Shown: positions 5,875 to 34,925 of the stretch, in pieces
Numbering within the stretch: position 1 is the stretch's first letter
How the letters are laid out: each line of letters opens with the position of its first letter
DNA from: a virus
Lineage: Duplodnaviria > Heunggongvirae > Uroviricota > Caudoviricetes
Strand: one strand, 5' to 3'
Length of the DNA stretch: 40,408 nt
IMG/VR virus record: IMGVR_UViG_2529292759_000002
Location: 1-40,408 of that record
Notes under the pieces: model-generated
The model's database searches: none
What the model was told of the DNA's origin: nothing
The model's input: the letters and a program-made list of their open reading frames with translations, nothing else
Program-made: the position numbers and the translations under genes

Positions 5875-5951
5875 TTACCGTTGAGGTAATAATTATGCTT
5901 ATTTGGTTTGGTGTCAATAGATATGAGTTAAAAAAATTACCCGCAAGGTAA
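5875..5951 (-). promoter_or_regulatory. OL-like region: two 15-bp palindromes (TTACCGTTGAGGTAA 5875-5889; TTACCCGCAAGGTAA 5937-5951) flanking a candidate leftward promoter
   Basis: Palindromes 62 bp apart; minus-strand TTGACA at about 5922-5927 with a TAATTA/ATAATT -10 candidate about 16 bp downstream. Confidence 0.55.
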
Positions 5952-5960
5952 TCTATCTGG

Positions 5961-5986
5961 CAATAAAAAAGCCGCCATGAGGCGGC
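5961..5986 (-). terminator. Intrinsic terminator downstream of the repressor gene
   Basis: Minus-strand GCCGCC-TCAT-GGCGGC hairpin followed by TTTTTTATT. Confidence 0.7.
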
Positions 5987-6008
5987 TTACTTACTGAAAA
6001 CTATAGTT

Positions 6009-6593
6009 TTATTGTTTGTTTTTTTCGTTCTGGTTGATGACAAATTCAATGTAACTTTCGATCTTTGCTTTCTCGGTTTCGGGTAACAATGCGTAGCGTG
6101 AGCGGTCATAGTTGATAGTCGCAGGGTCGTGCGGGTGAATCAGTAGTTCATATCCGTGACGCCCGAATGCGGATGCAACATTCTCCAGGGTGGAAATGGA
6201 AACGCTGACCTCATTGTTTAACAGGCGGCTGATTGTCACCTGGGCGACGCCGGATGCGCGGTGAAGTTTTCCCTGTGTTGAAAGGTCGCGGCTTTCGCTC
6301 ATCCAGCGTTCCAGGTTGTGAGCCGCCAGCTGACCTATATCGCTCGGGCCGACAGGCTGAAAACCCTCCTGAGAAAGCGAACGATCAATATCAAGCCAGT
6401 TACGGGGTTTATTGGCGGCAGCTTCAATTTTTCGTGCAACCTGGTCGCCGATAACCTTCTTGCCAAGAGCCCAGCGGTTTACCAGATTTGCCTGAGTTCC
6501 AAGTTTTTCTGCCATCCGCGTCTGAACACCATTGAATTCACGGTCGATCAAGTCGTTGAGATTTTGCCTGCGGACGTCCTGGATACTTTTCAT
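6009..6593 (-). CDS. Prophage repressor candidate: tandem HTH (XRE-like) protein with no recognisable S24 autopeptidase domain
   Basis: 194 aa; two HTH-like segments (QTRMAEKLGTQANLVNRWALG and ASGVAQVTISRLLNNEV); divergent from the Cro-like gene with operator-like palindromes between; no GxSM...K signature. Confidence 0.7.
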   Translation of the reverse strand: MKSIQDVRRQNLNDLIDREFNGVQTRMAEKLGTQANLVNRWALGKKVIGDQVARKIEAAANKPRNWLDIDRSLSQEGFQPVGPSDIGQLAAHNLERWMSESRDLSTQGKLHRASGVAQVTISRLLNNEVSVSISTLENVASAFGRHGYELLIHPHDPATINYDRSRYALLPETEKAKIESYIEFVINQNEKNKQ

Positions 6594-6648
6594 TTTCTGG
6601 AAAATCGCCTCATATATGAATCAGTAGATGATTCAATTTAAAGCAATA

Positions 6649-6711
6649 TTACCCAACAGGTAAATGCACCTCATAGGTAACTATCCTTGATTTTTGTTAC
6701 CTTATGGGTGA
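6649..6711. promoter_or_regulatory. OR-like region: three 15-bp palindromic sites between the repressor and Cro-like genes
   Basis: TTACCCAACAGGTAA (6649-6663), GCACCTCATAGGTAA (6666-6680), TTACCTTATGGGTGA (6697-6711); triple arrangement resembles a lambdoid OR. Confidence 0.6.
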
Positions 6712-6747
6712 ATATTTATTATCTGAAATAAATATCAGGCAATAGCT

Positions 6748-6978
6748 ATGAGCGATAACGGACATTTCGATTTCAAAAAGCACTGGCTTGCACTTACTCC
6801 GGATGAGCGTGAAGCCTTCGCACAGGAAGCCGGAACGACGAGTCACTATATCCAGACTCACTTAACAGGTAAGCGCAAAATGCCAGGTAAAGTATTGATG
6901 AATGGGCTTTTTAAAGCCTGTAAAACAAGACAATGGTTGCGCTCAAAAGCAGAACTGGCATACTTCTTCTACTCATGA
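6748..6978 (+). CDS. Cro-like small DNA-binding protein
   Basis: 76 aa, basic; divergent from the repressor across the operator region; AGCTATG start context. Confidence 0.55.
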   Translation: MSDNGHFDFKKHWLALTPDEREAFAQEAGTTSHYIQTHLTGKRKMPGKVLMNGLFKACKTRQWLRSKAELAYFFYS

Positions 6979-7000
6979 TATCCAGCTACACCCCTCTGTA

Positions 7001-7024
7001 GACCGCCACCCGGCGGTCTTTTCA
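7001..7024 (+). terminator. Intrinsic terminator after the Cro-like gene
   Basis: GACCGCC-ACC-CGGCGGTC hairpin followed by TTTTCAT. Confidence 0.5.
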
Positions 7025-7033
7025 TATCTATTC

Positions 7034-7048
7034 GCACCTTAAAGGTAA
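7034..7048. promoter_or_regulatory. 15-bp palindromic site (GCACCTTAAAGGTAA) upstream of the replication operon
   Basis: Same left-half variant (GCACC) as the middle OR site; about 80 bp upstream of the 7129 start. Confidence 0.45.
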
Positions 7049-7128
7049 TAAAAAACCAAATATGGTTGATCTTTTTTTTGTGTCAGCACAAAATAACCGT
7101 AATCCCAATACTAATAACAGGGCTTACC

Positions 7129-7329
7129 ATGGAAATCATTACACGTATTGATGCCGCAAAGCGCGGACTTAAACGCTACTACACCGGAAAACCATGTAAG
7201 CACGGACATGACAGTGAACGCTGGGTTTACAACGGACACTGTGTTGAGTGCACCATGGAATCAAACCGTCGCATCAGGGCAGAGATTAAGCAGATCATGA
7301 TTAATTCCTCCCCACAACACTCAAGCTGA
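7129..7329 (+). CDS. Small Cys/His-rich protein in the cII-equivalent position
   Basis: 66 aa from the internal ATG at 7129; C-x-H-x-H ... C-x2-C pattern (CKHGHDSERWVYNGHCVEC); lies between the Cro-like gene and the O-like gene. Confidence 0.5.
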   Translation: MEIITRIDAAKRGLKRYYTGKPCKHGHDSERWVYNGHCVECTMESNRRIRAEIKQIMINSSPQHSS

Positions 7330-7344
7330 TAGCGGAGATTAATC

Positions 7345-8136
7345 ATGAGCAGACATGCAACAGATTGGGCCTGGGAGACAGATCCAGGTAGCTCGTCATT
7401 AAAGCTCATACTGCTCTCGATGGCTGACAGAGCCGATGAATATAACCTCTGCTACCCCAGCATAGAACGCCTCGTTAAAGACACTTGCCTGAATAAAAAA
7501 ACCGTGCAGGCCGGACTTATATCGCTCATGAAAATGGGGCTTATTTCAGATACCGGGGAGAGAAAGGGAGCGACAAAAAGAGTGCGGGTTTTCTCTCTTA
7601 ATATAACCAAAAACGGGAACATTAAAGGCAACCGAGAGGGGGGCAATGAACCCGAAAACGGTAATGTTACCGAAAACGGGAATATACCCAAAAACGGGAT
7701 GTTGAATGATCCCAAAAACGGGATCCAGAACCAGTCATATAACCAGTCATTTAACCAAGAGAGGGAGAGCAGGACAAAAAACGGGGATTCTGTGCATCAT
7801 GACCCCGGCGCAAACAACGCCGTGATGAATAACTTTGTTCCTCCTAGTGGGCCAGGGCAATTAGGCAAATTTGTCATGCATGAACAATGGCAGCCATCAG
7901 ATGACTTTCTTCGGAAAAGCTCATTGCAGGGGATCTACCTGGACAGTCTGCCAACGGCACAGGAACTTGCAGAGTTCAGAATTTACTGGATGGCTGAGGG
8001 TAAGGCATACCATCAGGCACAGTGGGAGCAGAAGCTGGCAAGGCGGCTGCAGATTAGCAGACAGAAGCAATCAACATTACCTGATAACAACGTTCCGCAC
8101 TGGAACAGCCCTGAAGCATGGGAGGATTTCTTGTGA
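7345..8136 (+). CDS. Replication initiator (O-like) with an internal iteron-encoded linker
   Basis: 263 aa; N-terminal winged-helix-like region; central repeated KNGN/ENGN peptide encoded by the DNA iterons; directly upstream of the P homologue. Confidence 0.65.
   Translation: MSRHATDWAWETDPGSSSLKLILLSMADRADEYNLCYPSIERLVKDTCLNKKTVQAGLISLMKMGLISDTGERKGATKRVRVFSLNITKNGNIKGNREGGNEPENGNVTENGNIPKNGMLNDPKNGIQNQSYNQSFNQERESRTKNGDSVHHDPGANNAVMNNFVPPSGPGQLGKFVMHEQWQPSDDFLRKSSLQGIYLDSLPTAQELAEFRIYWMAEGKAYHQAQWEQKLARRLQISRQKQSTLPDNNVPHWNSPEAWEDFL
7607..7724. repeat. Iteron array (candidate origin of replication) inside the O-like gene
   Basis: Five copies of CC(A/G)AAAACGG(G/T)A(A/T) starting near 7607, 7652, 7670, 7688 and 7712 (three at 18-bp spacing), followed by an AACCAGTCAT direct repeat. 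Confidence 0.65.
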
Positions 8137-8918
8137 ACAACGTTTTTACCGCGATACAAAACCGTGACGGAGAAGCCCTTTCTCGCATGTCAGGTTATGA
8201 GCATCAGTACACCAACAATGACAACGTGGTGAACATGTCAGCAGAGAGGCTTGTTGATGCCCTTTTCAAACAGCTGAAACAACTGTTTCCGGCGGCAGTG
8301 GTAACCAACCTGAAGACGCCAGAGCAGGAAGTTGCTGCAAAACAGCAGTGGATTGCTGCGTTTGCCGAAGGGGGGATCCGAACCCGTGAACAGGTTTCTG
8401 CTGGTATGCGCCACGCCCGCGCCAGTGAGTCTCCGTTCTGGCCGTCGCCAGGGCAATTCATCAAGTGGTGTAAAGACAGCAAGATGGTTCTTGGCGTCAC
8501 CATTGACGATGTGATGGCGGAGTTTCACCGGTACAGCAAGGAAAAAAGTTTATATCCTGGTGGTCCCGAAAGATTCCCGTGGCGACATCCGGTTATGTAC
8601 TGGGTCGTATGTGATACCCGCCGTGCAATGTATCAGCGCCAGCTTAGCGAGATTGAGGTTGAGAAACACGCGCGCAGGCTGCTCGATGATTGGGCGAAAA
8701 AGGTGGCTTCCGGACAGCAGATACCCGATCCGGTGATCAGCATACAGGCAAAGCCAGAACCCATGAGTACACCTCCGGACACAGGGAGAGACGTTTACCA
8801 TCCACCAGGGCGAAGTTTCGGGTGCATGCCTAACGCCGCCACCCTTGGGGGAATAACACCGGCGCAGTGGCTGATGGAGGAATACAGGCGGGGAAAGGCG
8901 GCAGGATTTATCAAGTAA
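8118..8918 (+). CDS. Replication protein P homologue (helicase loader)
   Basis: 266 aa; QWIAAFAEGGIRTREQVSAGMRHARASESPFWPSPGQFIKWC closely parallels recalled lambda P (QWVLAFRENGITTMEQVNAGMRVARRQNRPFLPSPGQFVAWC). Confidence 0.85.
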   Translation: MGGFLVNNVFTAIQNRDGEALSRMSGYEHQYTNNDNVVNMSAERLVDALFKQLKQLFPAAVVTNLKTPEQEVAAKQQWIAAFAEGGIRTREQVSAGMRHARASESPFWPSPGQFIKWCKDSKMVLGVTIDDVMAEFHRYSKEKSLYPGGPERFPWRHPVMYWVVCDTRRAMYQRQLSEIEVEKHARRLLDDWAKKVASGQQIPDPVISIQAKPEPMSTPPDTGRDVYHPPGRSFGCMPNAATLGGITPAQWLMEEYRRGKAAGFIK

Positions 8919-8922
8919 TACC

Positions 8923-8946
8923 AGCGCGATAGCGCATTTTTTTACG
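8923..8946 (+). terminator. Weak intrinsic terminator after the P homologue
   Basis: Short GCGC-GATA-GCGC stem followed by ATTTTTTT. Confidence 0.35.
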
Positions 8947-8955
8947 TCTCGATGA

Positions 8956-9031
8956 TTACCTACTGGGTAATAAAATATTCTAAAATCTATTGATTTAGTG
9001 TCTTATGTGGTTTTTAATTACCTCGGGGGTA
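8956..9031. promoter_or_regulatory. Pair of 15-bp palindromes (TTACCTACTGGGTAA 8956-8970; TTACCTCGGGGGTAA 9017-9031) upstream of the 9036 operon
   Basis: Two perfect sites 61 bp apart; the second overlaps the ribosome-binding region of the 9036 gene. Confidence 0.55.
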
Positions 9032-9035
9032 AATC

Positions 9036-9380
9036 ATGAGAAAACAGATACAGGCTCTTGGTCGACTCAAAACAGGCCAGATGAACAAAACAGAATCTGC
9101 GTATTGCCAGCACCTTGAGCAGCGTAAACGTGCAGGGGAAATCGCCTGGTATCGGTTCGAGGGTATCAAGCTGCGGTTAGCTGATAACACGTTTTATACG
9201 CCAGATTCCGCTGTGATGCTCGCCACCGGCGAGATGGAACTGCACGAAGTGAAAGGTTTCTGGACCGACGACGCCAGGGTGAAAACCAAAGTCGCCGCAG
9301 ATCAGTATCCGTTCCGAATCATCGGGGTAACGGTTAAGCCAAAGAAAGCAGGTGGTGGCTGGAACATCGAAGAGTTCTGA
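9036..9380 (+). CDS. Hypothetical phage protein (possibly DUF1064-like)
   Basis: 114 aa; family assignment from memory only. Confidence 0.5.
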   Translation: MRKQIQALGRLKTGQMNKTESAYCQHLEQRKRAGEIAWYRFEGIKLRLADNTFYTPDSAVMLATGEMELHEVKGFWTDDARVKTKVAADQYPFRIIGVTVKPKKAGGGWNIEEF

Positions 9381-9441
9381 ATCGACGATCTTTTTAGTTA
9401 TCAATGTAATCAATAAGTTATGTGGATAAGCGAGGGTAAAG

Positions 9442-9990: not shown

Positions 9991-10430
9991 GCAAGATTGA
10001 CTATCAGGCACTGCGTGAGGCGGCAGAGAAAGCAACGTGTGGCGAGTGGTCGCTCGAATATGGAGATGGCCGATTTGATGGTGATGATGCACTAATTCAT
10101 CGTGAAGTTGCTGGATATATTCCCATTTGCAGAATTGAAGGAGCGCATCCAGAAAGCCGTTTCTATGAAGATTTCCAAATGGAGCAGCAGGCCAATGCTG
10201 AATTCATCGCCGCAGCCAATCCAGCTACCGTGCTGGCACTGCTGGATGAACTGGAAGCAGCAAAAAAGCGCATTGCAGAACTGGAAGCGCGGGAAATACT
10301 GCTCCCGGAACGTAGCAGCATGCTTCATCGAACAGATTTTCACGATGATTACCAAACGGTAATGGCATACAAAGTTTCTGAAGTCATCGATGCAATCCGC
10401 GCTACTGGCATTCGCATCAAAGGAGAGTGA
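9987..10430 (+). CDS. Ead/Ea22-like family protein (tentative)
   Basis: 147 aa; REAAEKATCGEW and AANPATVLALLDELEAAKKRIAELE resemble Ea22-like proteins as recalled. Confidence 0.5.
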   Translation: MSKIDYQALREAAEKATCGEWSLEYGDGRFDGDDALIHREVAGYIPICRIEGAHPESRFYEDFQMEQQANAEFIAAANPATVLALLDELEAAKKRIAELEAREILLPERSSMLHRTDFHDDYQTVMAYKVSEVIDAIRATGIRIKGE

Positions 10431-10431
10431 G

Positions 10432-11187: not shown

Positions 11188-11197
11188 GGACTAACAA

Positions 11198-11850: not shown

Positions 11851-12124
11851 CCTGCAACTTGCCGTTAAAGGTGAATACTTCGATGCCATGATTCGCGGAG
11901 AGAAAACGGAAGAGTATCGCCTGTGTAATGACTACTGGAATAAGCGAATTATGTTCCGGGAGTATGACCGCCTGATTATCACAAAGGGATATCCGAAGCG
12001 CGACGATTCCAGCCGTAGAATTGATGTTCCGTATGACGGATATGAAATAAAGACAATCACACATCCCCACTTCGGCGATAAACCGGTAAAGGTGTACGCG
12101 ATAAAGGTGAATATTGATGGCTAA
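11843..12124 (+). CDS. Hypothetical small protein (possibly ASCH/PUA-like fold)
   Basis: 93 aa; overlaps both neighbours, consistent with an operon. Confidence 0.45.
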   Translation: MANLQLAVKGEYFDAMIRGEKTEEYRLCNDYWNKRIMFREYDRLIITKGYPKRDDSSRRIDVPYDGYEIKTITHPHFGDKPVKVYAIKVNIDG

Positions 12125-12455
12125 ATCAGCAGCAGAGCGCAAAGCCGCTCAGAGAGCCAGACAAGCTGCATCTGGTGTGCGTAAGCTGGAAATTGTGCTT
12201 GATGCTCAGGAAATTGAAATGCTGGAGCGTAACTGTGCCACGCGTCGCCCCGGGCGTGCGCCTTACGAATTTGGTGAGTATATAGCGTTACTGATCCGCC
12301 AGGATGATGCACGCGTGCGCGGGCGTATAAAATCGATCAGCAAAAAATGTTGCGGTAAGTGCGGCGAGAGAGTTCCAGTTAATTCATGCCCGTGTAATGG
12401 TGACTCGCAATGCTGGGTGACTAAAGGCTGGCATGAAACGAAATTAATAGTGTGA
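12114..12455 (+). CDS. Cys-rich small protein immediately upstream of a terminator and the terminase genes; candidate late-gene regulator
   Basis: 113 aa; basic N-terminus; C-terminal cluster KKCCGKCGERVPVNSCPCNGDSQC; position analogous to a Q-type regulator (inference). Confidence 0.45.
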   Translation: MMAKSAAERKAAQRARQAASGVRKLEIVLDAQEIEMLERNCATRRPGRAPYEFGEYIALLIRQDDARVRGRIKSISKKCCGKCGERVPVNSCPCNGDSQCWVTKGWHETKLIV

Positions 12456-12504
12456 CATGTCACGAGTAGATTATGCATGATGAATTTGATGGGGTTTGAA
12501 TACT

Positions 12505-12530
12505 GCCGCCAACTATGGCGGCTTTATTTT
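12505..12530 (+). terminator. Strong intrinsic terminator between the early block and the terminase genes
   Basis: GCCGCC-AACTAT-GGCGGC hairpin followed by TTTATTTT. Confidence 0.7.
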
Positions 12531-12541
12531 GCATGGTACTA

Positions 12542-12574
12542 TTACCACAACGGTAACTATTACCACGGTGGTTA
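12542..12574. promoter_or_regulatory. Tandem 15-bp palindromes directly upstream of the terminase small-subunit start
   Basis: TTACCACAACGGTAA (12542-12556) and TTACCACGGTGGTTA (12560-12574), the second ending at the ATG. Confidence 0.5.
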
Positions 12575-14636: not shown

Positions 14637-14639
14637 TTT

Positions 14640-15488
14640 TTACTTTTGTGTTTTTGATTTTCTTTGATAGGTGGAATTTAAATCACCATTTATATTTACT
14701 AGAGGATTATTCAATAATGTACTGATTTCTGGATTGTTAATTCCAGTAACGCCAAGTTTCTTTACGGACTCATTAAAGTCTTGTAATGATTTTAGACCTA
14801 CAAGCCCATTAGCAATTGTATTATTTGTTGCCAAAGGAATGTTTTTCTTATAGGACTCATATTCGTTTTTTAAATTTTTGTGAGTTTTTTCTAGATTTTC
14901 TAGTTTAGATGTTGTTTCATCAATAACCTTAGATAATTCTAAAATACGAGCTTGTGCTGCGCGCAGTTCTGTCTCCCTCTCTTTCAATTCAGATGTGAGT
15001 TGTCCCATTCTGTCTTTTGAAAGAATTATTTCCTCTTTCATGTCTTGAATGTTTTTTTCAGCGCCTGTTTTTACTTTTTCGTAAGTAATGTCTTTTTTAG
15101 CCAGCAATCTCTGTAGCCGTGTTTCACGTTGTATTTTTCTTGCCTTCCGGTGGTTTTCGATTGAGTCATTATTATCAAGAGGTTTTGCTTGCCATACGTT
15201 AATGATATTGTTTACCCATGGTAATAGGCAGCAGATAGTAATTACAGATAAGCATGGATAAAACATAACAGTTTTCCATGTGCTGTTATCTGAGATGTAT
15301 GAAATTTTATCTATTATATTTGATTTGCTAAAAAACAGATAAAGAAGTGATTTCCAGTTGAAGGCGCACCAGGACATAACAAAAGCACCAAGCACAGGGT
15401 TTTTAGCTCGATGCACGGCAGTATTGGCAGTAGATAAAAACAGCTCTTTGAACGATTCGAACATACTAATTACCTTAAAGTTTTTCAT
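14640..15488 (-). CDS. AT-rich moron: unknown protein with two N-terminal hydrophobic segments and a long coiled-coil region
   Basis: Reverse strand between the terminase and portal genes; markedly AT-rich; start at MKNFKV (15488) or an internal Met at 15464; coiled-coil-like segment ETRLQRLLAKK...ELRAAQARILELSKVIDETTSKLENLEKTHKNLKNE. Confidence 0.6.
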   Translation of the reverse strand: MKNFKVISMFESFKELFLSTANTAVHRAKNPVLGAFVMSWCAFNWKSLLYLFFSKSNIIDKISYISDNSTWKTVMFYPCLSVITICCLLPWVNNIINVWQAKPLDNNDSIENHRKARKIQRETRLQRLLAKKDITYEKVKTGAEKNIQDMKEEIILSKDRMGQLTSELKERETELRAAQARILELSKVIDETTSKLENLEKTHKNLKNEYESYKKNIPLATNNTIANGLVGLKSLQDFNESVKKLGVTGINNPEISTLLNNPLVNINGDLNSTYQRKSKTQK

Positions 15489-15507
15489 GATTATACCTTT
15501 AAGGTAA
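15470..15507. promoter_or_regulatory. Palindromic site (ATACCTTTAAGGTAA 15493-15507) plus half-site (TTACC 15470-15474) at the moron start; a TATAAT hexamer overlaps
   Basis: Minus strand reads TTACCTTAAAGGTATAATCATG; a second ATTACCTTAAAG copy lies 25 bp downstream in the transcript. Confidence 0.5.
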
Positions 15508-15521
15508 TTTGTGGTCATCAG

Positions 15522-15548
15522 GCAAAAAAAATGCCCGGCGAACCGGGC
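15522..15548 (-). terminator. Intrinsic terminator between the tRNA and the moron (minus strand)
   Basis: Minus-strand GCCCGG-TTCG-CCGGGC hairpin followed by TTTTTTTT. Confidence 0.6.
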
Positions 15549-15711: not shown

Positions 15712-15788
15712 TGGCGTGGCATGCAGGATTCGAACCTGCGACCAACCGCTTAGAAGGCGGTTGCTCTGTCCAACTGAGCTAATGCCAC
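15712..15788 (-). tRNA. tRNA-Arg (anticodon UCU), argU-like
   Basis: Hand-folded cloverleaf: acceptor GTGGCAT/ATGCCAC, D-stem GCTC/GAGC, anticodon stem ACCGC/GCGGT with loop CTTCTAA, T-arm GCAGG-TTCGAAT-CCTGC, encoded CCA; 77 nt. Confidence 0.85.
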
Positions 15789-16110
15789 AACGCTGAGAGC
15801 ACTTAGCCTGTTAAGGCGCCACACTTTGTCGCGGCTCCATAAATGCTCTCATCGTTGTACCCTCGTCTCTTCCGAGGCGTCACACCGAATCGCCGGGATG
15901 GTGAATCCCCGTGCGCGGAATAAAACCGCTCGACTTGCACATTCCGGCTACCTGGTTCGTTTGCCCGAGCAAGGGAGGGTGCCCCTTAAACGTATCCAGA
16001 CCGCTATCGGCGCATGTGCCATACGCCGTACTGCTCAAAATAAAAGCTCACTCCACCTGTTCAATTTAACGACAAGCCAGTCAGGTTAGTAACCGGAATG
16101 AACTCTTTGG

Positions 16111-16125
16111 TTACCTGAAGGGTAA
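16111..16125. promoter_or_regulatory. 15-bp palindrome (TTACCTGAAGGGTAA) upstream of the structural gene block
   Basis: Perfect site about 90 bp upstream of the 16216 ATG. Confidence 0.45.
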
Positions 16126-16422: not shown

Positions 16423-16436
16423 CCGGAGTCATTGAA

Positions 16437-18116
16437 ATGGCGGAAACAACTAAAGAGCGATTGAACAAACAGTTCGCACAACTTGAAAGCGAGCGTCAGT
16501 CGTTCGAGTCGCACTGGCGCGAGTTGAGTGATTACATCAACCCGCGTGGTTCCCGCTTTCTGACTTCTGAGGTTAACCGTAACGATCGACGCAATACACG
16601 CATTATTGATTCGACCGGGACTATGGCGGCGCGCACTCTTGCCAGCGGCATGATGTCAGGCATAACAAGCCCCGCCCGTCCGTGGTTTCGCCTGGCTACG
16701 CCAGATCCTGAAATGATGGACTATGGCCCTGTTAAGTTGTGGCTTGAGGCAGTTCAGAACCGCATGAACGATATGTTCAATAAGTCGAATCTCTACCAGT
16801 CCCTTCCGCAGTTATACGGAAGCCTCGGCACATACAGCACTGGTGCAATGGCGGTGCTGGAGGATGACGAGGACATCATTCGCACAATGCCATTCCCGAT
16901 AGGCAGTTACTACCTGGCTAACTCACCTCGTGGCAGTGTGGACACCTGTTTCCGCAAGTTCTCTATGACTGTTCGTCAGCTTGTTCAGGAGTTCGGGCTA
17001 AATAACGTCAGCGAATCCGTAAAAAGCATGTGGGAAAGCGGCACCTACGAGAAGTGGATTGAAGTGATGCATTCGGTTTACCCGAACATTGACCGCGATA
17101 CATCGAAGCTGGATAGCAAGAACAAGCCATTCAAATCGGTTTATTACGAGGTTGGTGGCGATAACGACAAGTTGTTGCGTGAGTCCGGATTCGATGAGTT
17201 TCCAATTATGGCTCCGCGCTGGGAAGTTAACGGCGAAGATGTTTATGGATCATCATGCCCGGGTATGCTGGCGCTTGGATCTGTTAAGGCATTGCAGCTT
17301 CTTCAGAAGCGCAAGTCGCAGTTGATTGATAAAGCCACCAATCCGCCGATGGTTGCTCCGACTTCCCTCAAGAATCAGCGCGCCTCCCTTCTTCCTGGCG
17401 ACATCACGTATATCGATCAGATTACTGGTCAGGATGGCTTCAGGCCTGCTTATCTGGTTAACCCCAGTACAGCAGATTTGGTGGCAGACATTCAGGACAC
17501 TCGTCAAATCATTAACAGCGCCTACTTTGTCGATCTGTTCATGATGTTGCAGAACATCAATACCCGCTCGATGCCTGTTGAAGCGGTGATCGAAATGAAA
17601 GAAGAAAAACTTCTGATGTTGGGGCCGGTTCTGGAGCGTCTGAACGACGAATGTCTTAATCCTCTCATTGACCGCGCTTTCTCGATGATGGTGCGTAAAA
17701 ACATGCTGCCGCCACCGCCTGACGCGATGGAAGGCATGCCCCTGAAGGTCGAATACATTTCCGTCATGGCTCAGGCGCAGAAGTCTATCGGCCTGTCCAG
17801 TCTGGCGTCCACGGTTAACTTCATTGGTCAACTTGCGCAAGCGAAACCAGAAGCTCTCGACAAACTCAACGTTGATCAGGCGATCGATGCATTCGCTGAT
17901 ATGTCCGGAGTGTCTCCAACCGTCATTGTTCCGCAGGAACAGGTTGAGCAGGCTCGCCAGCAACGGGCACAGCAACAACAGCAGCAACAAATGATGGCGA
18001 TGGGGATGGCGGCGGCACAGGGTGCCAAGACGCTAAGCGAAGCTAAAACTTCGGATCCGAGTGTTTTGTCAGCTATGGCGAATGCAGTTAGTGGTCAGGG
18101 TGGGCAATCACAATGA
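16437..18116 (+). CDS. Portal protein
   Basis: 559 aa; follows the terminase block and precedes scaffold and capsid; size and order typical of podovirus portals. Confidence 0.8.
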   Translation: MAETTKERLNKQFAQLESERQSFESHWRELSDYINPRGSRFLTSEVNRNDRRNTRIIDSTGTMAARTLASGMMSGITSPARPWFRLATPDPEMMDYGPVKLWLEAVQNRMNDMFNKSNLYQSLPQLYGSLGTYSTGAMAVLEDDEDIIRTMPFPIGSYYLANSPRGSVDTCFRKFSMTVRQLVQEFGLNNVSESVKSMWESGTYEKWIEVMHSVYPNIDRDTSKLDSKNKPFKSVYYEVGGDNDKLLRESGFDEFPIMAPRWEVNGEDVYGSSCPGMLALGSVKALQLLQKRKSQLIDKATNPPMVAPTSLKNQRASLLPGDITYIDQITGQDGFRPAYLVNPSTADLVADIQDTRQIINSAYFVDLFMMLQNINTRSMPVEAVIEMKEEKLLMLGPVLERLNDECLNPLIDRAFSMMVRKNMLPPPPDAMEGMPLKVEYISVMAQAQKSIGLSSLASTVNFIGQLAQAKPEALDKLNVDQAIDAFADMSGVSPTVIVPQEQVEQARQQRAQQQQQQQMMAMGMAAAQGAKTLSEAKTSDPSVLSAMANAVSGQGGQSQ

Positions 18117-19115: not shown

Positions 19116-20108
19116 ATGACAATGGCTGTTAAAGGCTTAACTGCGCTGACGCTGGCTGACTGGGGTAAGCGCGTCGATCCAAACGGGAAAGTCGATAAGA
19201 TTATCGAGCTTCTCGGTCAAACTAACCCGATCCTTCAGGATATGCCTTTTGTCGAAGGGAACCTTCCTACCGGACACCGAACCACCATTCGTTCTGGTTT
19301 ACCTTCAGCTACCTGGCGTTTGCTGAACTATGGCGTACAGCCAAGCAAATCAACCACAGTACAGGTAACCGATTCCGTTGGCATGCTGGAAACCTATGCG
19401 GAAGTCGATAAGTCACTGGCTGATCTGAACGGCAATACCGCCGAATTCCGCCTGTCTGAAGACCGCGCATTTATTGAAGCGATGAATCAGCAGATGGCGC
19501 AGACGCTGTTTTATGGTGATTCCAGCGTTAACCCTCAGCAGTTTATGGGACTGTCCTCCCGCTATTCCAGCCTGTCTGCGGGTAATGCTCAGAACATCAT
19601 TGATGCTGGTGGCACGGGTACAGATAACACCTCAATCTGGTTAGTGGTGTGGGGCGAAAACACCGTGCATGGCATCTTCCCGAAAGGGCAGAAGGCTGGC
19701 ATCCAGATGGAAGATAAAGGCCAGGTGACACTGGAAGATGCTAATGGCGGCAAGTACGAAGGCTATCGCACCCATTACAAATGGGATAACGGACTTGCTC
19801 TGCGTGACTGGCGTTATGTTGTTCGCATTGCAAACATCGATGTCAGCAATCTTTCAGAACCATCCTCTGCCGCAAATATTGCGAAGTTGATGGTTAAAGC
19901 ACTGCATCGCATTCCAAACCGTGGCATGGGCCGCCCGGTGTTCTACATGAACCGCACTGTAGGCCAGGCTCTTGATCTGCAGTCTCTGGAGAAAACATCT
20001 CTGGCTATCAGCGTAAAAGAGACAGAAGGCGAGTGGTGGACTTCATTCCGTGGTGTACCAATCCGTGAAACTGATGCGCTTCTGGAAACAGAAGCCCGCG
20101 TGGTGTAA
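19116..20108 (+). CDS. Major capsid protein
   Basis: 330 aa; position after the scaffold; followed by a stem-loop (20125-20144). Confidence 0.75.
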   Translation: MTMAVKGLTALTLADWGKRVDPNGKVDKIIELLGQTNPILQDMPFVEGNLPTGHRTTIRSGLPSATWRLLNYGVQPSKSTTVQVTDSVGMLETYAEVDKSLADLNGNTAEFRLSEDRAFIEAMNQQMAQTLFYGDSSVNPQQFMGLSSRYSSLSAGNAQNIIDAGGTGTDNTSIWLVVWGENTVHGIFPKGQKAGIQMEDKGQVTLEDANGGKYEGYRTHYKWDNGLALRDWRYVVRIANIDVSNLSEPSSAANIAKLMVKALHRIPNRGMGRPVFYMNRTVGQALDLQSLEKTSLAISVKETEGEWWTSFRGVPIRETDALLETEARVV

Positions 20109-29714: not shown

Positions 29715-29719
29715 ATTAA

Positions 29720-32194: not shown

Positions 32195-32389
32195 GGATGT
32201 GTTGTGTTTTTAATTATTTTGAGTGTGATAATTTCTGGTGGGTTGTTATTTATTGACCGCTACAAATATTTTCTTAACCCTCAGACTCAAGCTATTTGCT
32301 GGTTCATCTTTGTTGTGCAGGGAATAGTTCTTGTTGCAAGCCTTATTGAGGGGAGGCCTCTGATTTTTACTGGGTAAATAGGTGACTAC

Positions 32390-32686
32390 ATGCAAGCGAT
32401 AGGATTCATTGTTTATATCGTCGTTGGCCTTTTTCAGTTGGCAGCAATTATGGCTGGGCTTGAATCATGGTGGGGATTGCACTGGATAATTGCAGCCCCC
32501 ATTGCTTTCATCGTGAGCTATATTCCATTTGTTGGAGCGATTGTTGGTATGGTTGGCGCTGTGGATGTATGGCGGTGGGAGTGGTGGCAGGCTGGCCTTC
32601 TCTTCTTTGGTGGGATCATCTTTGCTATTGTCTGCGGTGGAATGTCATCATTTTTCGAATGGCTATCATTCAGAAAAGGGACGTGA
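32390..32686 (+). CDS. Small Trp-rich integral membrane protein (candidate superinfection-exclusion or lysogenic-conversion factor)
   Basis: 98 aa with 2-3 hydrophobic helices; located after the ejection proteins; followed by a bidirectional terminator. Confidence 0.45.
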   Translation: MQAIGFIVYIVVGLFQLAAIMAGLESWWGLHWIIAAPIAFIVSYIPFVGAIVGMVGAVDVWRWEWWQAGLLFFGGIIFAIVCGGMSSFFEWLSFRKGT

Positions 32687-32756
32687 CATGTCACAGGCCG
32701 CTTTCGCGGCCTTGTTTTTAACGAATGCCACCGCCGCCCGGGCGGGAATCCGCAGA

Positions 32757-32783
32757 CACAAAAAAGCCCGCGCTGCGGGCTTC
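32757..32783. terminator. Bidirectional intrinsic terminator
   Basis: GCCCGC-GCT-GCGGGC hairpin flanked by AAAAAA upstream and TTCTATT downstream; T-tract strongest for the minus strand. Confidence 0.7.
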
Positions 32784-32785
32784 TA

Positions 32786-33418
32786 TTAATGCAGTTTATC
32801 TTTGCTTATAACCAGTAGTCTGTGGGTATGCACATCTTTATCACTGCCCCAACAGAAATCAGCCCACTGGCTATAGAAATCATCCCATGATGTCATGAAG
32901 CTAAGAGGTCTATCTTCTTCAGAGCCATCTGAAACGTATACATTATATCCTGGGGTGTTTATAGCCCAAGAAATCATTCTTTCCCAGAATCTTCTCCCAT
33001 CGATTGTTTGTTGCTCATCAGATACAACGATCGCATATTGCTCTAGGAAGAACTGAAAAAAAATCTGAGGCAAACCATGAACAGCACGGTCATGAATAAC
33101 ATTAGGCGTACGCCATACCATGATCTGCGTACATGTTCTTTTGGCTTCGACGATATCTTCCCGAAAGATTAACTTAACCGCATACACCGTTTCTGGAGTA
33201 TCGCTGGTAGTAATCATTCTGTAATGATCGCCATTACAAGATTTTACAAGGCGATAACCATAAGGTGTTGTGAATCCCGGAAGAACGAAATCAACCACAC
33301 CTTTCGCTAAGTAGCTTTCGGTGTGACTAGTGTTCTTCTCAGACATGTTCAGTTTTCTATCGAAATCTGCTTCTGGGATAATGTATGGCATCGCTTTTCT
33401 TGTTGTATTTGTTCTCAT
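32786..33418 (-). CDS. Accessory protein of unknown function (210 aa), AT-rich
   Basis: Reverse strand within the late region; GGAGG 3 nt before the ATG; own upstream palindromic site and strong terminator. Confidence 0.55.
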   Translation of the reverse strand: MRTNTTRKAMPYIIPEADFDRKLNMSEKNTSHTESYLAKGVVDFVLPGFTTPYGYRLVKSCNGDHYRMITTSDTPETVYAVKLIFREDIVEAKRTCTQIMVWRTPNVIHDRAVHGLPQIFFQFFLEQYAIVVSDEQQTIDGRRFWERMISWAINTPGYNVYVSDGSEEDRPLSFMTSWDDFYSQWADFCWGSDKDVHTHRLLVISKDKLH

Positions 33419-33477
33419 TTCGTCCTCCCATGTTTGGCTACAGGACGCGTTTTGAAGGGAAGATTAAAAATGCTTTC

Positions 33478-33492
33478 TTACCCTTGAGGTAA
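33478..33492. promoter_or_regulatory. 15-bp palindrome (TTACCCTTGAGGTAA) upstream of the 210-aa accessory gene
   Basis: Perfect site 60 bp upstream of the ATG at 33418. Confidence 0.5.
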
Positions 33493-33565
33493 TAGTACGC
33501 TATTCACCCCCAGTCTGCAATCTGTACAGAATTATTTAAAGGCACATCCCTGTGCCGCCGTTCTG

Positions 33566-34261
33566 TCAGAAGAACCCTGCCTTGTCGTTGATGTACTCCG
33601 CGTGGGTCTGGATATCACGCAGGCATTTGCTCACACCGACGATGTAGCAGAACATGGTGGTCAGTTCCGCCGCCGCGCCCGATACGTCGTGCCCGTCTTC
33701 CTGTAACTGGTTCAGCAGATTCATCAGCAGTGAGTTCTCCGTCAGGCCGAGAACACCAGACGGCGAATGAATCAGGCTACGGTAGCCGGGCTTCAGTGGG
33801 GCACTGTAGGTTTTGTTCTCTATCTTCATCGCCTGCATTACTGCTGACGCCGTGGCGTTGGCTACCTGGTCGGCAACCATCTTTATGCGTTCTTCCTGCG
33901 GGAGCGAGTTTTTAATGTAACTTCCGGTGCGGCGGATCTGAGGAAGAACCTCACCTGTAACCCATTTACGAAAGCGGTAGGGGATAGTGCCTGGTGTCAC
34001 TGCGTCGCGGCAGCGGAGGATCAGTGTGTAGAGGCCTGACTCGGAGATGATGATCGATTCTTGCTCACCGCCAGGGGTGTCGGTTGAAGCGACGCCCTTC
34101 TCATCATCATCAAGTTTTCGAACAGCATCTCGATGGTTTGCTATGCCTATAGCCCGACAAACATCTGAAGCGATAAACCATGGCTCACCATTAATGACGA
34201 TTACCCGTATATCGGCTTGGGATTCGAAAGAAAAAATGGACGTGCTTTTTGTAGCTGTCAT
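33566..34261 (-). CDS. Bro-N / KilA-N domain antirepressor (Ant-like)
   Basis: 231 aa; N-terminal pattern IRVIVINGEPWFIASDVCRAIGIANHRDAVRKL...ESGLYTLILR typical of Bro-N antirepressors; C-terminal domain paralogous to the small upstream gene. Confidence 0.75.
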   Translation of the reverse strand: MTATKSTSIFSFESQADIRVIVINGEPWFIASDVCRAIGIANHRDAVRKLDDDEKGVASTDTPGGEQESIIISESGLYTLILRCRDAVTPGTIPYRFRKWVTGEVLPQIRRTGSYIKNSLPQEERIKMVADQVANATASAVMQAMKIENKTYSAPLKPGYRSLIHSPSGVLGLTENSLLMNLLNQLQEDGHDVSGAAAELTTMFCYIVGVSKCLRDIQTHAEYINDKAGFF

Positions 34262-34418
34262 AGTGGTTACCTTTTAGTCTGGTTAATCACCACTACCGAC
34301 GCCAATCGGTTGGTGGTGAACTGTGCAGGGTTGGCGTAACCGGCTAAAAGGACCCGGCGCACCTTTCGGTGCCCCCACACAGCCCACCATAATACGAATG
34401 TGGCCGTGCTATACGCAT

Positions 34419-34438
34419 AAAAAAACCGCTTGCGCGGT
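34419..34438 (-). terminator. Intrinsic terminator between the small SOS-box gene and the antirepressor gene
   Basis: Minus-strand ACCGCGCAAGCGGT hairpin followed by TTTTTTT. Confidence 0.55.
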
Positions 34439-34530
34439 GAATGCGCCTTTTAGTAATCCGGGACGCCAATCCCGGCACTGGATTTTGCCAGTGCTCGATT
34501 ACTATGGCACAAGAGGAGTGCGTTGTAAAT

Positions 34531-34545
34531 TTACCGCAAAGGTAA
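34531..34545. promoter_or_regulatory. 15-bp palindrome (TTACCGCAAAGGTAA) in the antirepressor upstream region
   Basis: Perfect site between the stop of the small gene and the terminator/leader of the antirepressor gene. Confidence 0.45.
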
Positions 34546-34576
34546 ATATAAGCACTCCATTTGGTGATTGCAAACC

Positions 34577-34834
34577 TTATCTGGTTTGTTTTCGTAATTG
34601 TTCGGCACAATAGTCGAGATGTGTTTGCAGATCCTGCATAGACATCTGTGAGCTGGTGACGTAGTTAATCAGTGCAGTCAGTTCGGCAAGTGGGCCATCG
34701 ACATTAAATCCATCCTTATCGAGATCCCGGAGTAATTTCATCAAGTGCGATCCCTCCACCAGTGACCTGACGCCTCCCGGCGTGTGAATCCTTTCGGTAA
34801 ATCCGTCTTCCAGTGGATAGTGATACTGCTGCAT
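34577..34834 (-). CDS. Small protein (85 aa) homologous to the C-terminal domain of the downstream antirepressor; SOS-box-preceded
   Basis: Start taken at the internal ATG (MQQYHYPLEDG...) because a LexA-type box and a palindromic site lie inside the longer ORF; GGAG Shine-Dalgarno 8 nt upstream; shared pattern IH.P.GV..L.E.S.LM.LL..L..DG..V.G...ELT...Y...L.D.QTH..Y with Ant residues about 155-225. Confidence 0.6.
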   Translation of the reverse strand: MQQYHYPLEDGFTERIHTPGGVRSLVEGSHLMKLLRDLDKDGFNVDGPLAELTALINYVTSSQMSMQDLQTHLDYCAEQLRKQTR

Positions 34835-34853
34835 CTTATCTTCTCCATGCAAT

Positions 34854-34873
34854 AACTGTATATTTATACAGTA
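34854..34873. promoter_or_regulatory. LexA (SOS) box
   Basis: AACTGTATATTTATACAGTA: CTGT-N8-ACAG with AT-rich spacer, 18/20 to the E. coli consensus; about 22 bp upstream of the small gene start. Confidence 0.75.
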
Positions 34874-34910
34874 GCAAATAATTTGTTTGCTATCCAGCAC
34901 GTTTTGCAAA

Positions 34911-34925
34911 TTACCTGAAAGGTAA
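34911..34925. promoter_or_regulatory. 15-bp palindrome (TTACCTGAAAGGTAA) upstream of the SOS box
   Basis: Perfect site about 40 bp upstream of the LexA box on the transcribed strand. Confidence 0.5.

What the first reader, a model, noticed from the sequence alone, without database searches (positions are those of the whole stretch)
5875..34925. A 15-bp palindrome, TTACC-N5-GGTAA, marks nearly every transcription-unit start in the prophage
Perfect or near-perfect copies occur at the int upstream region (151-165), as a pair at the leftward early promoter (5875-5889, 5937-5951), as a triple between the repressor and Cro-like genes (6649-6711), before the replication operon (7034-7048), as a pair before the 9036 operon (8956-8970, 9017-9031), in tandem at the terminase start (12542-12574), at the moron start (15493-15507), before the portal block (16111-16125), before the 210-aa accessory gene (33478-33492), and twice in the antirepressor region (34531-34545, 34911-34925). 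With 10 fixed positions, under one chance match is expected in 40 kb, so this is a genuine regulon-like element. The OL/OR-like triple and pair suggest it is the operator of the tandem-HTH repressor, but its presence at late-gene, moron and int promoters is unlike lambda (operators only at pL/pR) and implies either whole-genome silencing by one repressor or a different factor (Cro-like protein, late regulator). Several copies overlap ribosome-binding sites, so an RNA stem-loop role is also possible.
Basis: seen in the sequence. Interest (0 to 1): 0.85.

Follow-up and report, generated by a model that had tools for sequence, protein, structure and literature searches.

The report
Dispersed repressor operators of an ε15-like prophage
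The repeated palindrome is real and is almost certainly the binding site of the prophage's own repressor, placed at many promoters to keep the whole phage silent, but the same sites are already annotated as repressor sites in the related Salmonella phage ε15, so this is a rediscovery.

Summary
TTACC-N5-GGTAA occurs 10 times perfectly (0.03 expected) and 14 times with at most 1 mismatch (0.79 expected). All copies lie in the 8.6% of the window that is non-coding. The window is a complete Uetakevirus (ε15/phiV10-like) prophage bounded by its att core repeats.

The same palindrome sits at the same positions in eight relatives from E. coli, Salmonella, Enterobacter and Klebsiella. The public ε15 record already labels seven of these sites "protein_bind: repressor, lysogeny". 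The window's repressor (6009-6593, minus strand) is a full-length homologue of the crystallised SPC32H Rep (PDB 5D50). Its small antirepressor Ant (88% identical) and a perfect LexA box are also present.

At five promoters the last T of the -10 hexamer is the first T of the operator. At two promoters a pair of operators 62 bp apart brackets the promoter; 15 of 16 such pairs in 8 genomes are spaced 62 bp. There are no compensatory changes in 68 distinct sites, which argues against an RNA hairpin.

Best reading: one repressor silences about ten transcription units. Direct binding at the dispersed sites is inferred, not shown here.

Novelty: already known. Interest: low.

The parts
1..17 (+). attL core ATTGAGTGGGAATGATT (the prophage boundary; the same 17-mer forms attR at 40364-40380)
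   Evidence: two exact copies. The ZX5 paper gives this sequence as attP/attB at the 3' end of guaA.
151..165 (.). Operator upstream of int (TTACCTTAAAGGTAT, 1 mismatch). Its GGTAT half runs into TATACT, a possible -10.
   Evidence: The same site, with the same GGTAT variant, lies upstream of int in PAS61, phiV10, TL-2011b, SPC32H and ε15. BUCT554 and the Klebsiella phage carry the imperfect base on the opposite half-site (ATACC…GGTAA).
5875..5889 (.). PL-proximal operator. It abuts the -10 (AATTAT, 5894-5889, minus strand) of the leftward early promoter (TTGACA at 5917-5912).
   Evidence: In the alignment of five genomes, the half-sites, -35 and -10 are invariant and the 5-nt spacer varies.
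5937..5951 (.). PL-distal operator, 19 bp upstream of the -35 and 62 bp centre to centre from the proximal one
   Evidence: The spacing is 62 bp in 7 genomes and 63 bp in 1.
6009..6593 (-). Repressor Rep (194 aa): N-terminal Cro/YdaS-like HTH DNA-binding domain, a middle HTH_3-like domain and a C-terminal tetramerisation/Ant-binding segment. It has no S24 peptidase domain.
   Evidence: Pfam. PDB 5D50 SPC32H Rep, E 4e-42, aligned over residues 1-190; the N-terminal domain is near-invariant in 19 homologues. One search gives the domain names.
6649..6663 (.). OR operator 1 (perfect)
6666..6680 (.). OR operator 2 (GCACC..GGTAA, 2 mismatches), 17 bp from operator 1
   Evidence: The counterpart is perfect in ε15 (33358) and SPC32H (34407).
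6697..6711 (.). OR operator 3 (1 mismatch). It lies between the conserved -35 TTGATT (6687-6692) and the -10 of the rightward promoter for the Cro-like gene.
   Evidence: Every genome has exactly one imperfect half-site here: GGTGA in the E. coli lineage, TCACC in the Salmonella lineage.
6748..6978 (+). Cro-like protein (76 aa), a possible second binder of the same operators
   Evidence: phrog_35 'transcriptional repressor', E 5.6e-13. No Pfam match.
7034..7048 (.). Weak operator (2 mismatches) just after the terminator of the Cro-like gene (7000-7019) and before the replication operon
   Evidence: Counterparts with 1 mismatch occur in phiV10 (33112), BUCT554 (13481) and the Klebsiella phage (6032).
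8956..8970 (.). Distal operator of the promoter for the DUF1064 operon. It lies just after a terminator and 19 bp upstream of the -35 TTGATT (8990-8995).
9018..9032 (.). Proximal operator of the same promoter. It abuts the -10 (TTTAAT, 9013-9018) and covers the ribosome-binding site of the gene starting at 9036. It is 62 bp from the distal copy.
   Evidence: The spacing is 62 bp in all 8 genomes.
12534..12574 (+). terS promoter-operator block: an extended -10 (TGgTACTAT, 12534-12542) followed by two tandem operators (12542-12556 perfect; 12560-12574 with 1 mismatch). The likely terS start ATG at 12574 overlaps the second operator's last base.
   Evidence: TGnTA(C/G)TAT is conserved in window, PAS61, BUCT554 and ε15. 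A terminator lies at 12505-12522. ε15 annotates the first copy as a repressor site and starts terS after the second.
15490..15518 (-). Promoter of the accessory ('moron') gene: ATGACC-17-TATAAT, with the operator-like site at 15493-15507 (1 mismatch) over the spacer and -10. The gene most likely starts at the ATG at 15464.
   Evidence: The Klebsiella homologue keeps the promoter, but the site there has 2 mismatches, so this is the least certain operator.
16111..16125 (.). Operator upstream of the gp3/portal structural block. No convincing sigma-70 promoter was recognised next to it.
   Evidence: Counterparts occur in all 7 relatives, and ε15 annotates its copy (2931-2947) as a repressor site.
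33478..33520 (-). Promoter TTGCAG-17-TACTAT (33520-33492) abutting operator 33478-33492. It drives a 210-aa accessory gene (32786-33418).
   Evidence: TL-2011b has the same site (33333).
34531..34573 (-). Promoter TTGCAA-17-TATATT (34573-34545) abutting operator 34531-34545. It drives isrK-like and C4 RNAs and then the Bro-N antirepressor gene (33566-34261).
   Evidence: Rfam: isrK 77.9 bits, C4 77.7 bits; Bro-N.
34577..34834 (-). Small antirepressor Ant (85 aa)
   Evidence: 88% identical to SPC32H Ant. It sits in the same position, divergent from the tailspike gene.
34856..34871 (.). LexA box CTGTATATTTATACAG upstream of ant
   Evidence: perfect CTGT-N8-ACAG; context.
34911..34925 (.). Operator in the divergent region between ant and the tailspike gene (35030)
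   Evidence: Counterparts occur in all relatives, and ε15 annotates its copy (19895-19911) as a repressor site.

Best explanation
The palindrome (A)TTACC-N5-GGTAA(T) is the operator of the prophage's primary repressor Rep (6009-6593, minus strand). Rep is a non-cleavable repressor of the ε15/SPC32H type that works as a tetramer. Each palindrome takes a pair of N-terminal HTH domains.

The operators are not confined to OL and OR. They sit at about ten promoter regions: int, PL, PR/PRM, the replication operon, the DUF1064 operon, terS, gp3/portal, ant/tailspike, and three accessory cassettes. Most transcription units start with a terminator followed by their own promoter, so each needs its own operator. 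Repression of all of them keeps the lysogen silent.

At five promoters the operator begins at the last base of the -10 hexamer and covers the start site. That placement would block open-complex formation or promoter escape. At PL and the DUF1064 promoter a second operator lies 62 bp (about six helical turns) upstream, so one tetramer could hold both and clamp the promoter.

Induction works through the LexA-controlled small antirepressor Ant, with a Bro-N protein as a possible second antirepressor, rather than through cleavage of the repressor.

Shown here: the sites, their positions, their conservation, the homologies, and the promoter and terminator context. Inferred: occupancy by Rep at each site, promoter occlusion, and the loop.
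For: 1. Statistics and location. There are 10 perfect and 14 sites with at most 1 mismatch, against 0.03 and 0.79 expected. All are non-coding.

2. Classical operator geometry around the repressor gene. Two sites lie at PL and three at OR, overlapping conserved -35 and -10 hexamers. Half-sites are invariant and spacers free across E. coli, Salmonella and Enterobacter phages.

3. Existing annotation. The ε15 record annotates seven ATTACC-N5-GGTAAT copies as 'protein_bind, repressor, lysogeny', including dispersed ones before terS, gp3, the tail-fibre gene and gene 43.

4. Homology. Rep is homologous over its full length to SPC32H Rep (PDB 5D50, E 4e-42). Secondary sources state that this protein binds palindromic sites as a tetramer and is released by Ant. 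The N-terminal domain is nearly invariant in 19 homologues down to 42% overall identity.

5. The motif follows the immunity module. Eight Rep-encoding genomes from four host genera have 13-18 sites each, at corresponding positions. phiSG1 has a portal 58% identical but no Rep homologue, and has 1 site against 0.97 expected. Pseudomonas phage PseuP_224 has a cI that shares only the Rep-type N-terminal domain (39% identity). It carries TTACC-N4-GGTAA four times, only at its OL and OR.

6. Stereotyped junction of -10 and operator at PL, the DUF1064 promoter, terS, the 210-aa gene and the isrK/C4/Bro-N promoter.

7. Pair spacing. It is 62 bp in 15 of 16 pairs and 63 bp in one, across 8 genomes.

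8. Experiment in a relative. Overexpressing the identical repressor in phage ZX5 cut endolysin and holin transcripts by 99.97-99.99%.

9. The induction system is complete. Ant is 88% identical to SPC32H Ant, there is a perfect LexA box, and Rep has no S24 domain.
Against: - No binding experiment was available to me for any of the dispersed sites. The primary papers (Kropinski 2007; Kim and Ryu 2013; Kim et al. 2016) are not in the held library. The ε15 features may be predictions by its annotators.
- The Cro-like protein travels with the same module. Both the window's copy and the Pseudomonas phage's copy match phrog_35. Comparative data therefore cannot say whether Rep, Cro or both use the dispersed sites.
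- No convincing sigma-70 promoter was recognised next to the sites at 16111, 7034, 151 and 34911.
- The moron site is degenerate in the only homologous cassette found.
- The lysis cassette has no site in this window, so silencing is not literally genome-wide through this motif.
- The 62-bp spacing could partly reflect shared ancestry of a short region that contains a promoter of fixed length.
Confidence: 0.85

Rival explanations
1. The dispersed copies are used mainly by the Cro-like protein (6748-6978), or by it together with Rep. As in lambda, both proteins would share OL and OR. The extra sites would let Cro damp early, integration and accessory promoters during lytic growth.
For: The protein matches phrog_35 'transcriptional repressor' and sits directly right of OR. 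The Pseudomonas phage with TTACC-N4-GGTAA operators also has a phrog_35 protein in that position, so Cro co-occurs with the half-site just as the Rep-type domain does.
Against: The two Cro-like proteins share no BLASTP-detectable similarity, whereas the repressor N-terminal domains are 39% identical. The ε15 annotators assign the sites to the repressor. Repressing terS and structural promoters during lytic growth would work against the phage. This reading adds to the main one rather than excluding it.
Confidence: 0.3
2. The palindrome acts in RNA, as a short hairpin at the 5' ends of transcripts that affects ribosome binding, processing or termination.
For: Several copies cover ribosome-binding sites or lie just upstream of start codons (9018-9032, 12560-12574). 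Predicted hairpins of the 21-nt segments reach -2.0 to -7.2 kcal/mol.
Against: In 68 distinct sites from 8 genomes there is no pair with a change on both sides. Nineteen departures break pairing and 4 are wobble. A3, C4, G12 and T13 are invariant (sites were collected by match to the palindrome, which biases against finding double changes). At positional counterparts the imperfect half-site is not compensated (OR2 and OR3). Distal copies lie upstream of the -35 of their promoter (5937, 8956). The stems have only 5-7 pairs, most of them A-U, and there is no T-tract.
Confidence: 0.02
3. The sites bind another regulator: a phage late or early factor (the gp49-like regulator at 12114-12455, the PerC-like activator at 2766-3065, or AlpA at 3175-3423) or a host transcription factor.
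For: These regulators are encoded in the window. Several late-region sites lack a recognisable sigma-70 promoter, as expected for activator-dependent promoters.
Against: The densest clusters flank the repressor gene, not these genes. PseuP_224 has the half-site only at OL and OR and uses a Q-type antiterminator for late genes. A host factor would not explain the ~250-fold enrichment confined to Rep-encoding phages of four host genera, nor the absence in phiSG1. I know of no E. coli factor with this consensus (my own knowledge, not tested).
Confidence: 0.04

Closest known systems
Repressor-binding sites annotated in Salmonella phage ε15 (NC_004775/AY150271; Kropinski et al. 2007)
   Same: The palindrome is identical (ATTACC-N5-GGTAAT). 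The positions match: PL, before terS, before gp3, between gp19/ant and the tail-fibre gene, and before the first gene after the replication genes. The genus is the same (Uetakevirus).
   Different: The record lists only 7 sites. My scan finds 15 in ε15, including the OR triple, the int site and the proximal partner at 35969. The window adds sites at accessory cassettes that ε15 lacks (moron, 210-aa gene, isrK/C4/Bro-N) and lacks the site before the lysis cassette. The two repressors are only 42% identical overall.
SPC32H Rep / Ant / LexA lytic switch (Kim and Ryu 2013; Kim et al. 2016; PDB 5D50, 5D4Z)
   Same: Rep is homologous over its full length (E 4e-42). Ant is 88% identical and in the same position. 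A LexA box lies upstream of ant. There is no S24 cleavage domain. SPC32H carries the same palindromes at the same positions.
   Different: The window's Rep middle domain is strongly diverged. The window also has a second, Bro-N type antirepressor cassette behind isrK and C4 RNAs. Which operators were tested with SPC32H Rep could not be read here.
Phage P1 C1 repressor with operators scattered over the genome (established knowledge; paper not read here)
   Same: One primary repressor controls many separate promoters, including those for antirepressor, replication and late functions. Induction is by antirepression rather than cleavage.
   Different: P1 operators are asymmetric 17-mers bound by a different, unrelated protein. 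There is no sequence or protein homology.
Stoperators of cluster A mycobacteriophages (L5, Bxb1, TipsytheTRex; PMC9283540)
   Same: Numerous repressor sites are distributed across the phage genome and give genome-wide silencing (abstract).
   Different: Stoperators are asymmetric, bound by a monomer, and stop elongation inside transcription units. The sites here are palindromic and sit at promoters next to terminators, and the repressor is a tetramer.
Lambda OL/OR
   Same: The repressor and cro genes are divergent with a triple operator between them. Operators also lie at the leftward early promoter, and a Cro-like protein is present.
   Different: Lambda confines operators to two regions and reaches late genes through antitermination. 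Here, terminators separate the units and each unit carries its own operator.

Membership tests
ε15/SPC32H-type Rep-Ant immunity system (Uetakevirus) | Repressor homologous to SPC32H Rep: N-terminal DNA-binding domain, middle dimerisation domain and C-terminal tetramerisation/Ant-binding segment | tested here: met
   5D50_A, E 4e-42, residues 1-190 aligned to 2-197; alignment with the ε15 and SPC32H repressors. One search gives the domain definitions.
ε15/SPC32H-type Rep-Ant immunity system (Uetakevirus) | Repressor lacks a RecA-dependent autocleavage (S24) domain | tested here: met
   only HTH-type Pfam matches; no Peptidase_S24.
ε15/SPC32H-type Rep-Ant immunity system (Uetakevirus) | Small antirepressor Ant encoded divergently from the tailspike gene | tested here: met
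   88% identity over 83 aa to SPC32H Ant. The position matches.
ε15/SPC32H-type Rep-Ant immunity system (Uetakevirus) | LexA box at the ant promoter | tested here: met
   perfect CTGTATATTTATACAG at 34856-34871, 21 bp upstream of the ant start codon. That it overlaps the promoter is inferred.
ε15/SPC32H-type Rep-Ant immunity system (Uetakevirus) | ATTACC-N5-GGTAAT palindromes at the positions annotated as repressor sites in ε15 | tested here: met
   Positional counterparts are shown in alignments A2-A5.
ε15/SPC32H-type Rep-Ant immunity system (Uetakevirus) | Rep physically binds these palindromes and represses the adjacent promoters | not testable with these tools
   Only indirect support: secondary literature and the ZX5 overexpression data.
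Stoperator-type repressor sites (cluster A mycobacteriophages) | Asymmetric site bound by a monomeric repressor, acting on elongation within transcription units | tested here: not met
   The sites are perfect palindromes. They lie at promoters just after terminators. The homologous repressor is a tetramer.
Lambda-type immunity region (operators only at OL and OR) | Operators restricted to the two regions flanking the repressor gene | tested here: not met
   Eight of the 14 sites with at most 1 mismatch (ten of all 16) lie outside OL and OR. The distant Pseudomonas relative PseuP_224 does meet this feature.
Structured RNA element (hairpin) | Base pairing maintained by compensatory substitutions | tested here: not met
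   no pair with changes on both sides in 68 distinct sites. The covariation score is no higher than in shuffles.

The most novel reading that the evidence does not exclude
The operator set may be more than a list of independent sites. It may reflect the tetrameric build of Rep. At PL and the DUF1064 promoter, two palindromes exactly 62 bp apart (15 of 16 pairs in 8 genomes from four host genera, despite sequence drift between them) would be held by one tetramer, enclosing the whole promoter in a loop of about six helical turns. Tandem pairs 17-18 bp apart (OR1-OR2, terS) would be the alternative way to satisfy both DNA-binding pairs. Single sites would pair over longer distances, for example 34531 with 34911, which are 380 bp apart.

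In addition, newly acquired accessory cassettes (the moron, the 210-aa gene, isrK/C4/Bro-N) seem to join the regulon through one stereotyped junction, in which the -10 hexamer ends in the first T of the operator. According to a 2023 structural paper, the mechanism of repression by this repressor family has not been worked out in detail.
Probability: 0.3. Interest if true: 0.4.

Novelty: already known. Interest (0 to 1): 0.2.

Why it matters
The finding adds little new biology. It shows that a common E. coli prophage type uses the ε15/SPC32H scheme: one tetrameric, non-cleavable repressor with operators at about ten promoters, released by a LexA-controlled antirepressor. The immunity region is present in 540 of 5,426 complete E. 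coli genomes.

The practical value is for annotation and engineering.
- The phiV10, PAS61, ZX5 and TL-2011b records do not carry these sites.
- The sites help choose gene starts for terS, ant and the moron.
- They imply that several 'moron-like' accessory genes are switched off in the lysogen rather than expressed from it.

The conserved 62-bp promoter-bracketing pairs give a concrete, testable prediction for how the Rep tetramer represses.

Tried and rejected
- Primary papers. I tried to read Kropinski 2007 (PMC2698709), Kim and Ryu 2013 (PMC3807360) and Kim et al. 2016 (DOI, PMID and a guessed PMC id). None is held. I therefore could not establish which operators have been tested experimentally. 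My recollection that the ε15 paper gives the consensus ATTACCWDWWNGGTAAT is memory only.

- Literature searches for the motif itself or for palindromes in Uetakevirus gave nothing relevant.

- Covariation between repressor specificity and motif. The 86 Rep homologues found all keep an almost invariant N-terminal domain. No specificity-switched relative was available. The nearest substitute was PseuP_224 (N4 spacer variant).

- Separating Rep from Cro by comparative genomics failed, because the Pseudomonas phage also has a phrog_35 Cro-like protein.

- Sodalis phage phiSG1 served as a 'same virion, different immunity' control. It has no motif enrichment, but it is a degraded mosaic, so it is only a weak control.

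- The simple promoter scan is not discriminating: 13 sites found against 22 expected from shuffles. Promoter assignments rest on conservation in alignments plus manual reading. I could not assign promoters at 151, 7034, 16111 or 34911.

- A TTACC-N4-GGTAA scan of the window gave 2 hits, both inside genes and at chance level.

- Scanning host chromosomes for the motif was not possible, because the pattern has too few specified bases for the collection scans.

Full report
**What the window is**

The 17-bp att core ATTGAGTGGGAATGATT occurs at 1-17 and 40364-40380. This is the attP/attB core reported for phiV10, ε15 and ZX5 at the 3' end of guaA. The window is therefore one complete prophage.

Megablast places it among the ε15/phiV10-like podoviruses of the genus Uetakevirus. 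It is 97% identical over most of the early region to PAS61, phiv142-3, phiV10, ZX5 and TL-2011b. The immunity region alone is found in 540 of 5,426 complete E. coli genomes.

**The observation**

- TTACC-N5-GGTAA occurs 10 times perfectly, against 0.03 expected.
- It occurs 14 times with at most 1 mismatch, against 0.79 expected.
They count only because their positional counterparts in relatives are perfect or have 1 mismatch.
- I used a gene model whose doubtful starts follow annotated relatives. In it, non-coding DNA is 8.6% of the window and all 16 sites fall in it. The other 25 two-mismatch matches are all inside genes.
- A de novo count of all 5-bp palindromes with spacers of 0-12 ranks this one first, at about 250-fold enrichment, in the window, PAS61, ε15 and BUCT554.
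- The extended consensus is (A)TTACC-N5-GGTAA(T), with an A/T-rich spacer. A3, C4, G12 and T13 are invariant in 68 distinct sites.

**It is already annotated**

The RefSeq/GenBank record of ε15 carries seven features 'protein_bind, bound moiety repressor, note lysogeny'. Their sequences are ATTACC-N5-GGTAAT. They lie:

- before terS (12-27);
- before gp3 (2931-2947);
- between gp19 and the tail-fibre gene (19895-19911);
- three at the leftward early promoter (32479, 32554, 32616);
- before gene 43 (35906-35922).

These are the counterparts of window sites 12542, 16111, 34911, 5875/5937 and 8956. My scan finds 15 sites in ε15, including an OR triple and the int site that the record does not list.

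The same set is present in seven other genomes, each against fewer than 1 expected:

| Genome | Sites (at most 1 mismatch) |
|---|---|
| SPC32H | 18 |
| phiV10 | 14 |
| TL-2011b | 14 |
| PAS61 (first 33 kb) | 11 |
| Enterobacter phage BUCT554 | 14 |
| Klebsiella phage BUCT711 | 13 |

**Who binds**

The protein at 6009-6593 (minus strand) has a Cro/YdaS-like HTH at residues 21-61, an HTH_3 match at 106-147 and no peptidase domain. It aligns over its whole length with the crystallised repressor of Salmonella phage SPC32H (5D50, E 4e-42).

Secondary literature describes that protein as follows. It has an N-terminal DNA-binding domain, a middle dimerisation domain and a C-terminal tetramerisation domain that also binds the antirepressor. 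It binds palindromic sites as a tetramer whose DNA-binding pairs come from different dimers. Its mechanism of repression 'has not been extensively characterized'.

The N-terminal domain is almost invariant in 19 homologues, even where overall identity falls to 42%. This explains why E. coli and Salmonella phages share the half-site.

The rest of the SPC32H switch is present in the window:

- an 85-aa Ant, 88% identical, divergent from the tailspike gene;
- a perfect LexA box 21 bp upstream of it.

In ZX5, whose repressor is identical to the window's, overexpression of the repressor reduced endolysin and holin transcripts by 99.97-99.99%.

**Comparative controls**

- Pseudomonas phage PseuP_224 is a lambda-like siphovirus. 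Its cI shares only the N-terminal domain with Rep (39% identity over 71 aa).
  - It has TTACC-N4-GGTAA four times (0.26 expected). Two copies lie after the cI terminator and two between cI and the rightward gene; there are none elsewhere.
  - So the half-site follows this DNA-binding domain into an unrelated phage, with a different spacer and a lambda-like distribution.
- Sodalis phage phiSG1 has a portal 58% identical to the window's but no Rep homologue. It has one site with 1 mismatch, against 0.97 expected. It is a degraded mosaic, so this is weak evidence.
- The Cro-like protein cannot be separated from Rep. Both the window's copy and the Pseudomonas phage's copy match phrog_35, although they show no BLASTP similarity.

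**Anatomy of the sites**

Transcription units in this phage are separated by terminators: 5988-5969, 7000-7019, about 8926-8945 and 12505-12522. Each unit restarts with its own promoter and operator.

At five promoters the -10 hexamer ends in the first T of the operator:

| Promoter | Elements |
|---|---|
| PL | TTGACA-17-AATTAT, then TACC |
| DUF1064 operon | TTGATT-17-TTTAAT, then TACC |
| 210-aa gene | TTGCAG-17-TACTAT, then TACC |
| isrK/C4/Bro-N | TTGCAA-17-TATATT, then TACC |
| terS | extended -10 TGgTACTAT, then TACC, conserved in four genomes |

At PR, the operator 6697-6711 fills the space between a conserved -35 and the -10. At the moron, the site covers the spacer and -10 of ATGACC-17-TATAAT.

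PL and the DUF1064 promoter each have a second operator 19 bp upstream of the -35. The centre-to-centre distance is 62 bp in 15 of 16 cases across eight genomes, and 63 bp in one. The spacers and intervening bases drift. Tandem pairs are 17-18 bp apart at OR1-OR2 and at terS.

I could not recognise promoters next to 151, 7034, 16111 and 34911.

**Rejected readings**

An RNA hairpin is unlikely.
- No pair shows a change on both sides in 68 distinct sites. The caveat is that sites were collected by match to the palindrome.
- Imperfect half-sites at corresponding positions are not compensated.
- Distal copies lie upstream of their promoters.
- The stems are short and A-U rich, at -2 to -7 kcal/mol.

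A late regulator or a host factor would not explain the OL/OR clusters or the restriction of the motif to phages with this immunity module.

**Verdict**

The element is already annotated for ε15, and its repressor family has been studied structurally. This is a rediscovery in an unannotated E. coli relative.

Three points may go beyond the public record. I could not check them against the primary papers.
- The conserved 62-bp promoter-bracketing pairs.
- The stereotyped junction of -10 and operator.
- The recruitment of accessory cassettes into the regulon.

Direct binding at the dispersed sites remains inferred.

Noticed in passing
34309-34494 (minus strand): Two Rfam RNAs lie between ant and the Bro-N antirepressor gene: an isrK-like Hfq-binding sRNA (34419-34494, 77.9 bits) and a C4 antisense RNA (34309-34394, 77.7 bits). 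Both are downstream of a promoter that carries operator 34531-34545. The second antirepressor therefore appears to be controlled by Rep and by C4-type RNAs together.
   Followed up: partly
34577-34871: The small Ant protein is 88% identical to SPC32H Ant although the two repressors are only 42% identical overall. By my own count on the alignment, the N-terminal DNA-binding part and the C-terminal 30 residues of Rep are about 53-55% identical and the middle domain much less. A perfect LexA box sits at 34856-34871.
   Followed up: partly
151-165 and 15493-15507: The int site and the moron site are the same 15-mer (TTACCTTAAAGGTAT) in the same orientation relative to their genes, but their flanks are unrelated. 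At the moron the site is also one arm of a 12-bp inverted repeat, ATTACCTTAAAG / CTTTAAGGTAAT, whose arms are 16 nt apart (15469-15508).
   Followed up: partly
6697-6711; ε15 33388; SPC32H 34437: The PR-overlapping operator has exactly one imperfect half-site in every genome. The imperfect half is the right one (GGTGA) in the E. coli, Enterobacter lineage and the left one (TCACC) in the Salmonella lineage. This looks like selection for a weakened site rather than for a particular sequence.
   Followed up: no
38150-38455: The region upstream of the lysis cassette has no operator in this window. ε15, phiV10, SPC32H and BUCT554 each have one about 120 bp upstream of the first lysis gene. The window's sequence here is largely different (it has no O-antigen modification gene at this position).
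   Followed up: partly
15712-15788 (minus strand): A tRNA-Arg (anticodon TCT) lies between the moron and the structural genes. SPC32H has a tRNA-Arg at the corresponding place. About 320 bp of non-coding sequence (15789-16110) follows, which ε15 annotates in part as an RNase III processing site.
   Followed up: no
L007 (Pseudomonas phage PseuP_224) 10906-10945 and 11768-11820: This phage has operators TTACC-N4-GGTAA, one base shorter in the spacer. They accompany a cI that has a Rep-like N-terminal domain fused to a different, cleavable-type C-terminal half. It is a natural example of the same half-site read with different dimer geometry.
   Followed up: partly
14640-15464 (minus strand): The accessory gene between terL and the tRNA (phrog_4780, unknown function, no Pfam match) has no close DNA match in the phage collection apart from a 73%-identical 5' segment in Klebsiella phage BUCT711. 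Its promoter is overlapped by an operator-like site, so it may be a lytic-phase gene rather than one expressed from the lysogen.
   Followed up: partly
16437-18116 versus L001 15937-18144: The portal gene of PAS61 is annotated 176 codons longer than the window's (735 against 559 aa). The portal genes of the window, phiV10 and ε15 agree in length.
   Followed up: no
10349-10362: There is a perfect TTACC-N4-GGTAA (TTACCAAACGGTAA) inside a coding region. It is at chance level (2 hits against 0.75 expected) and is probably meaningless.
   Followed up: yes
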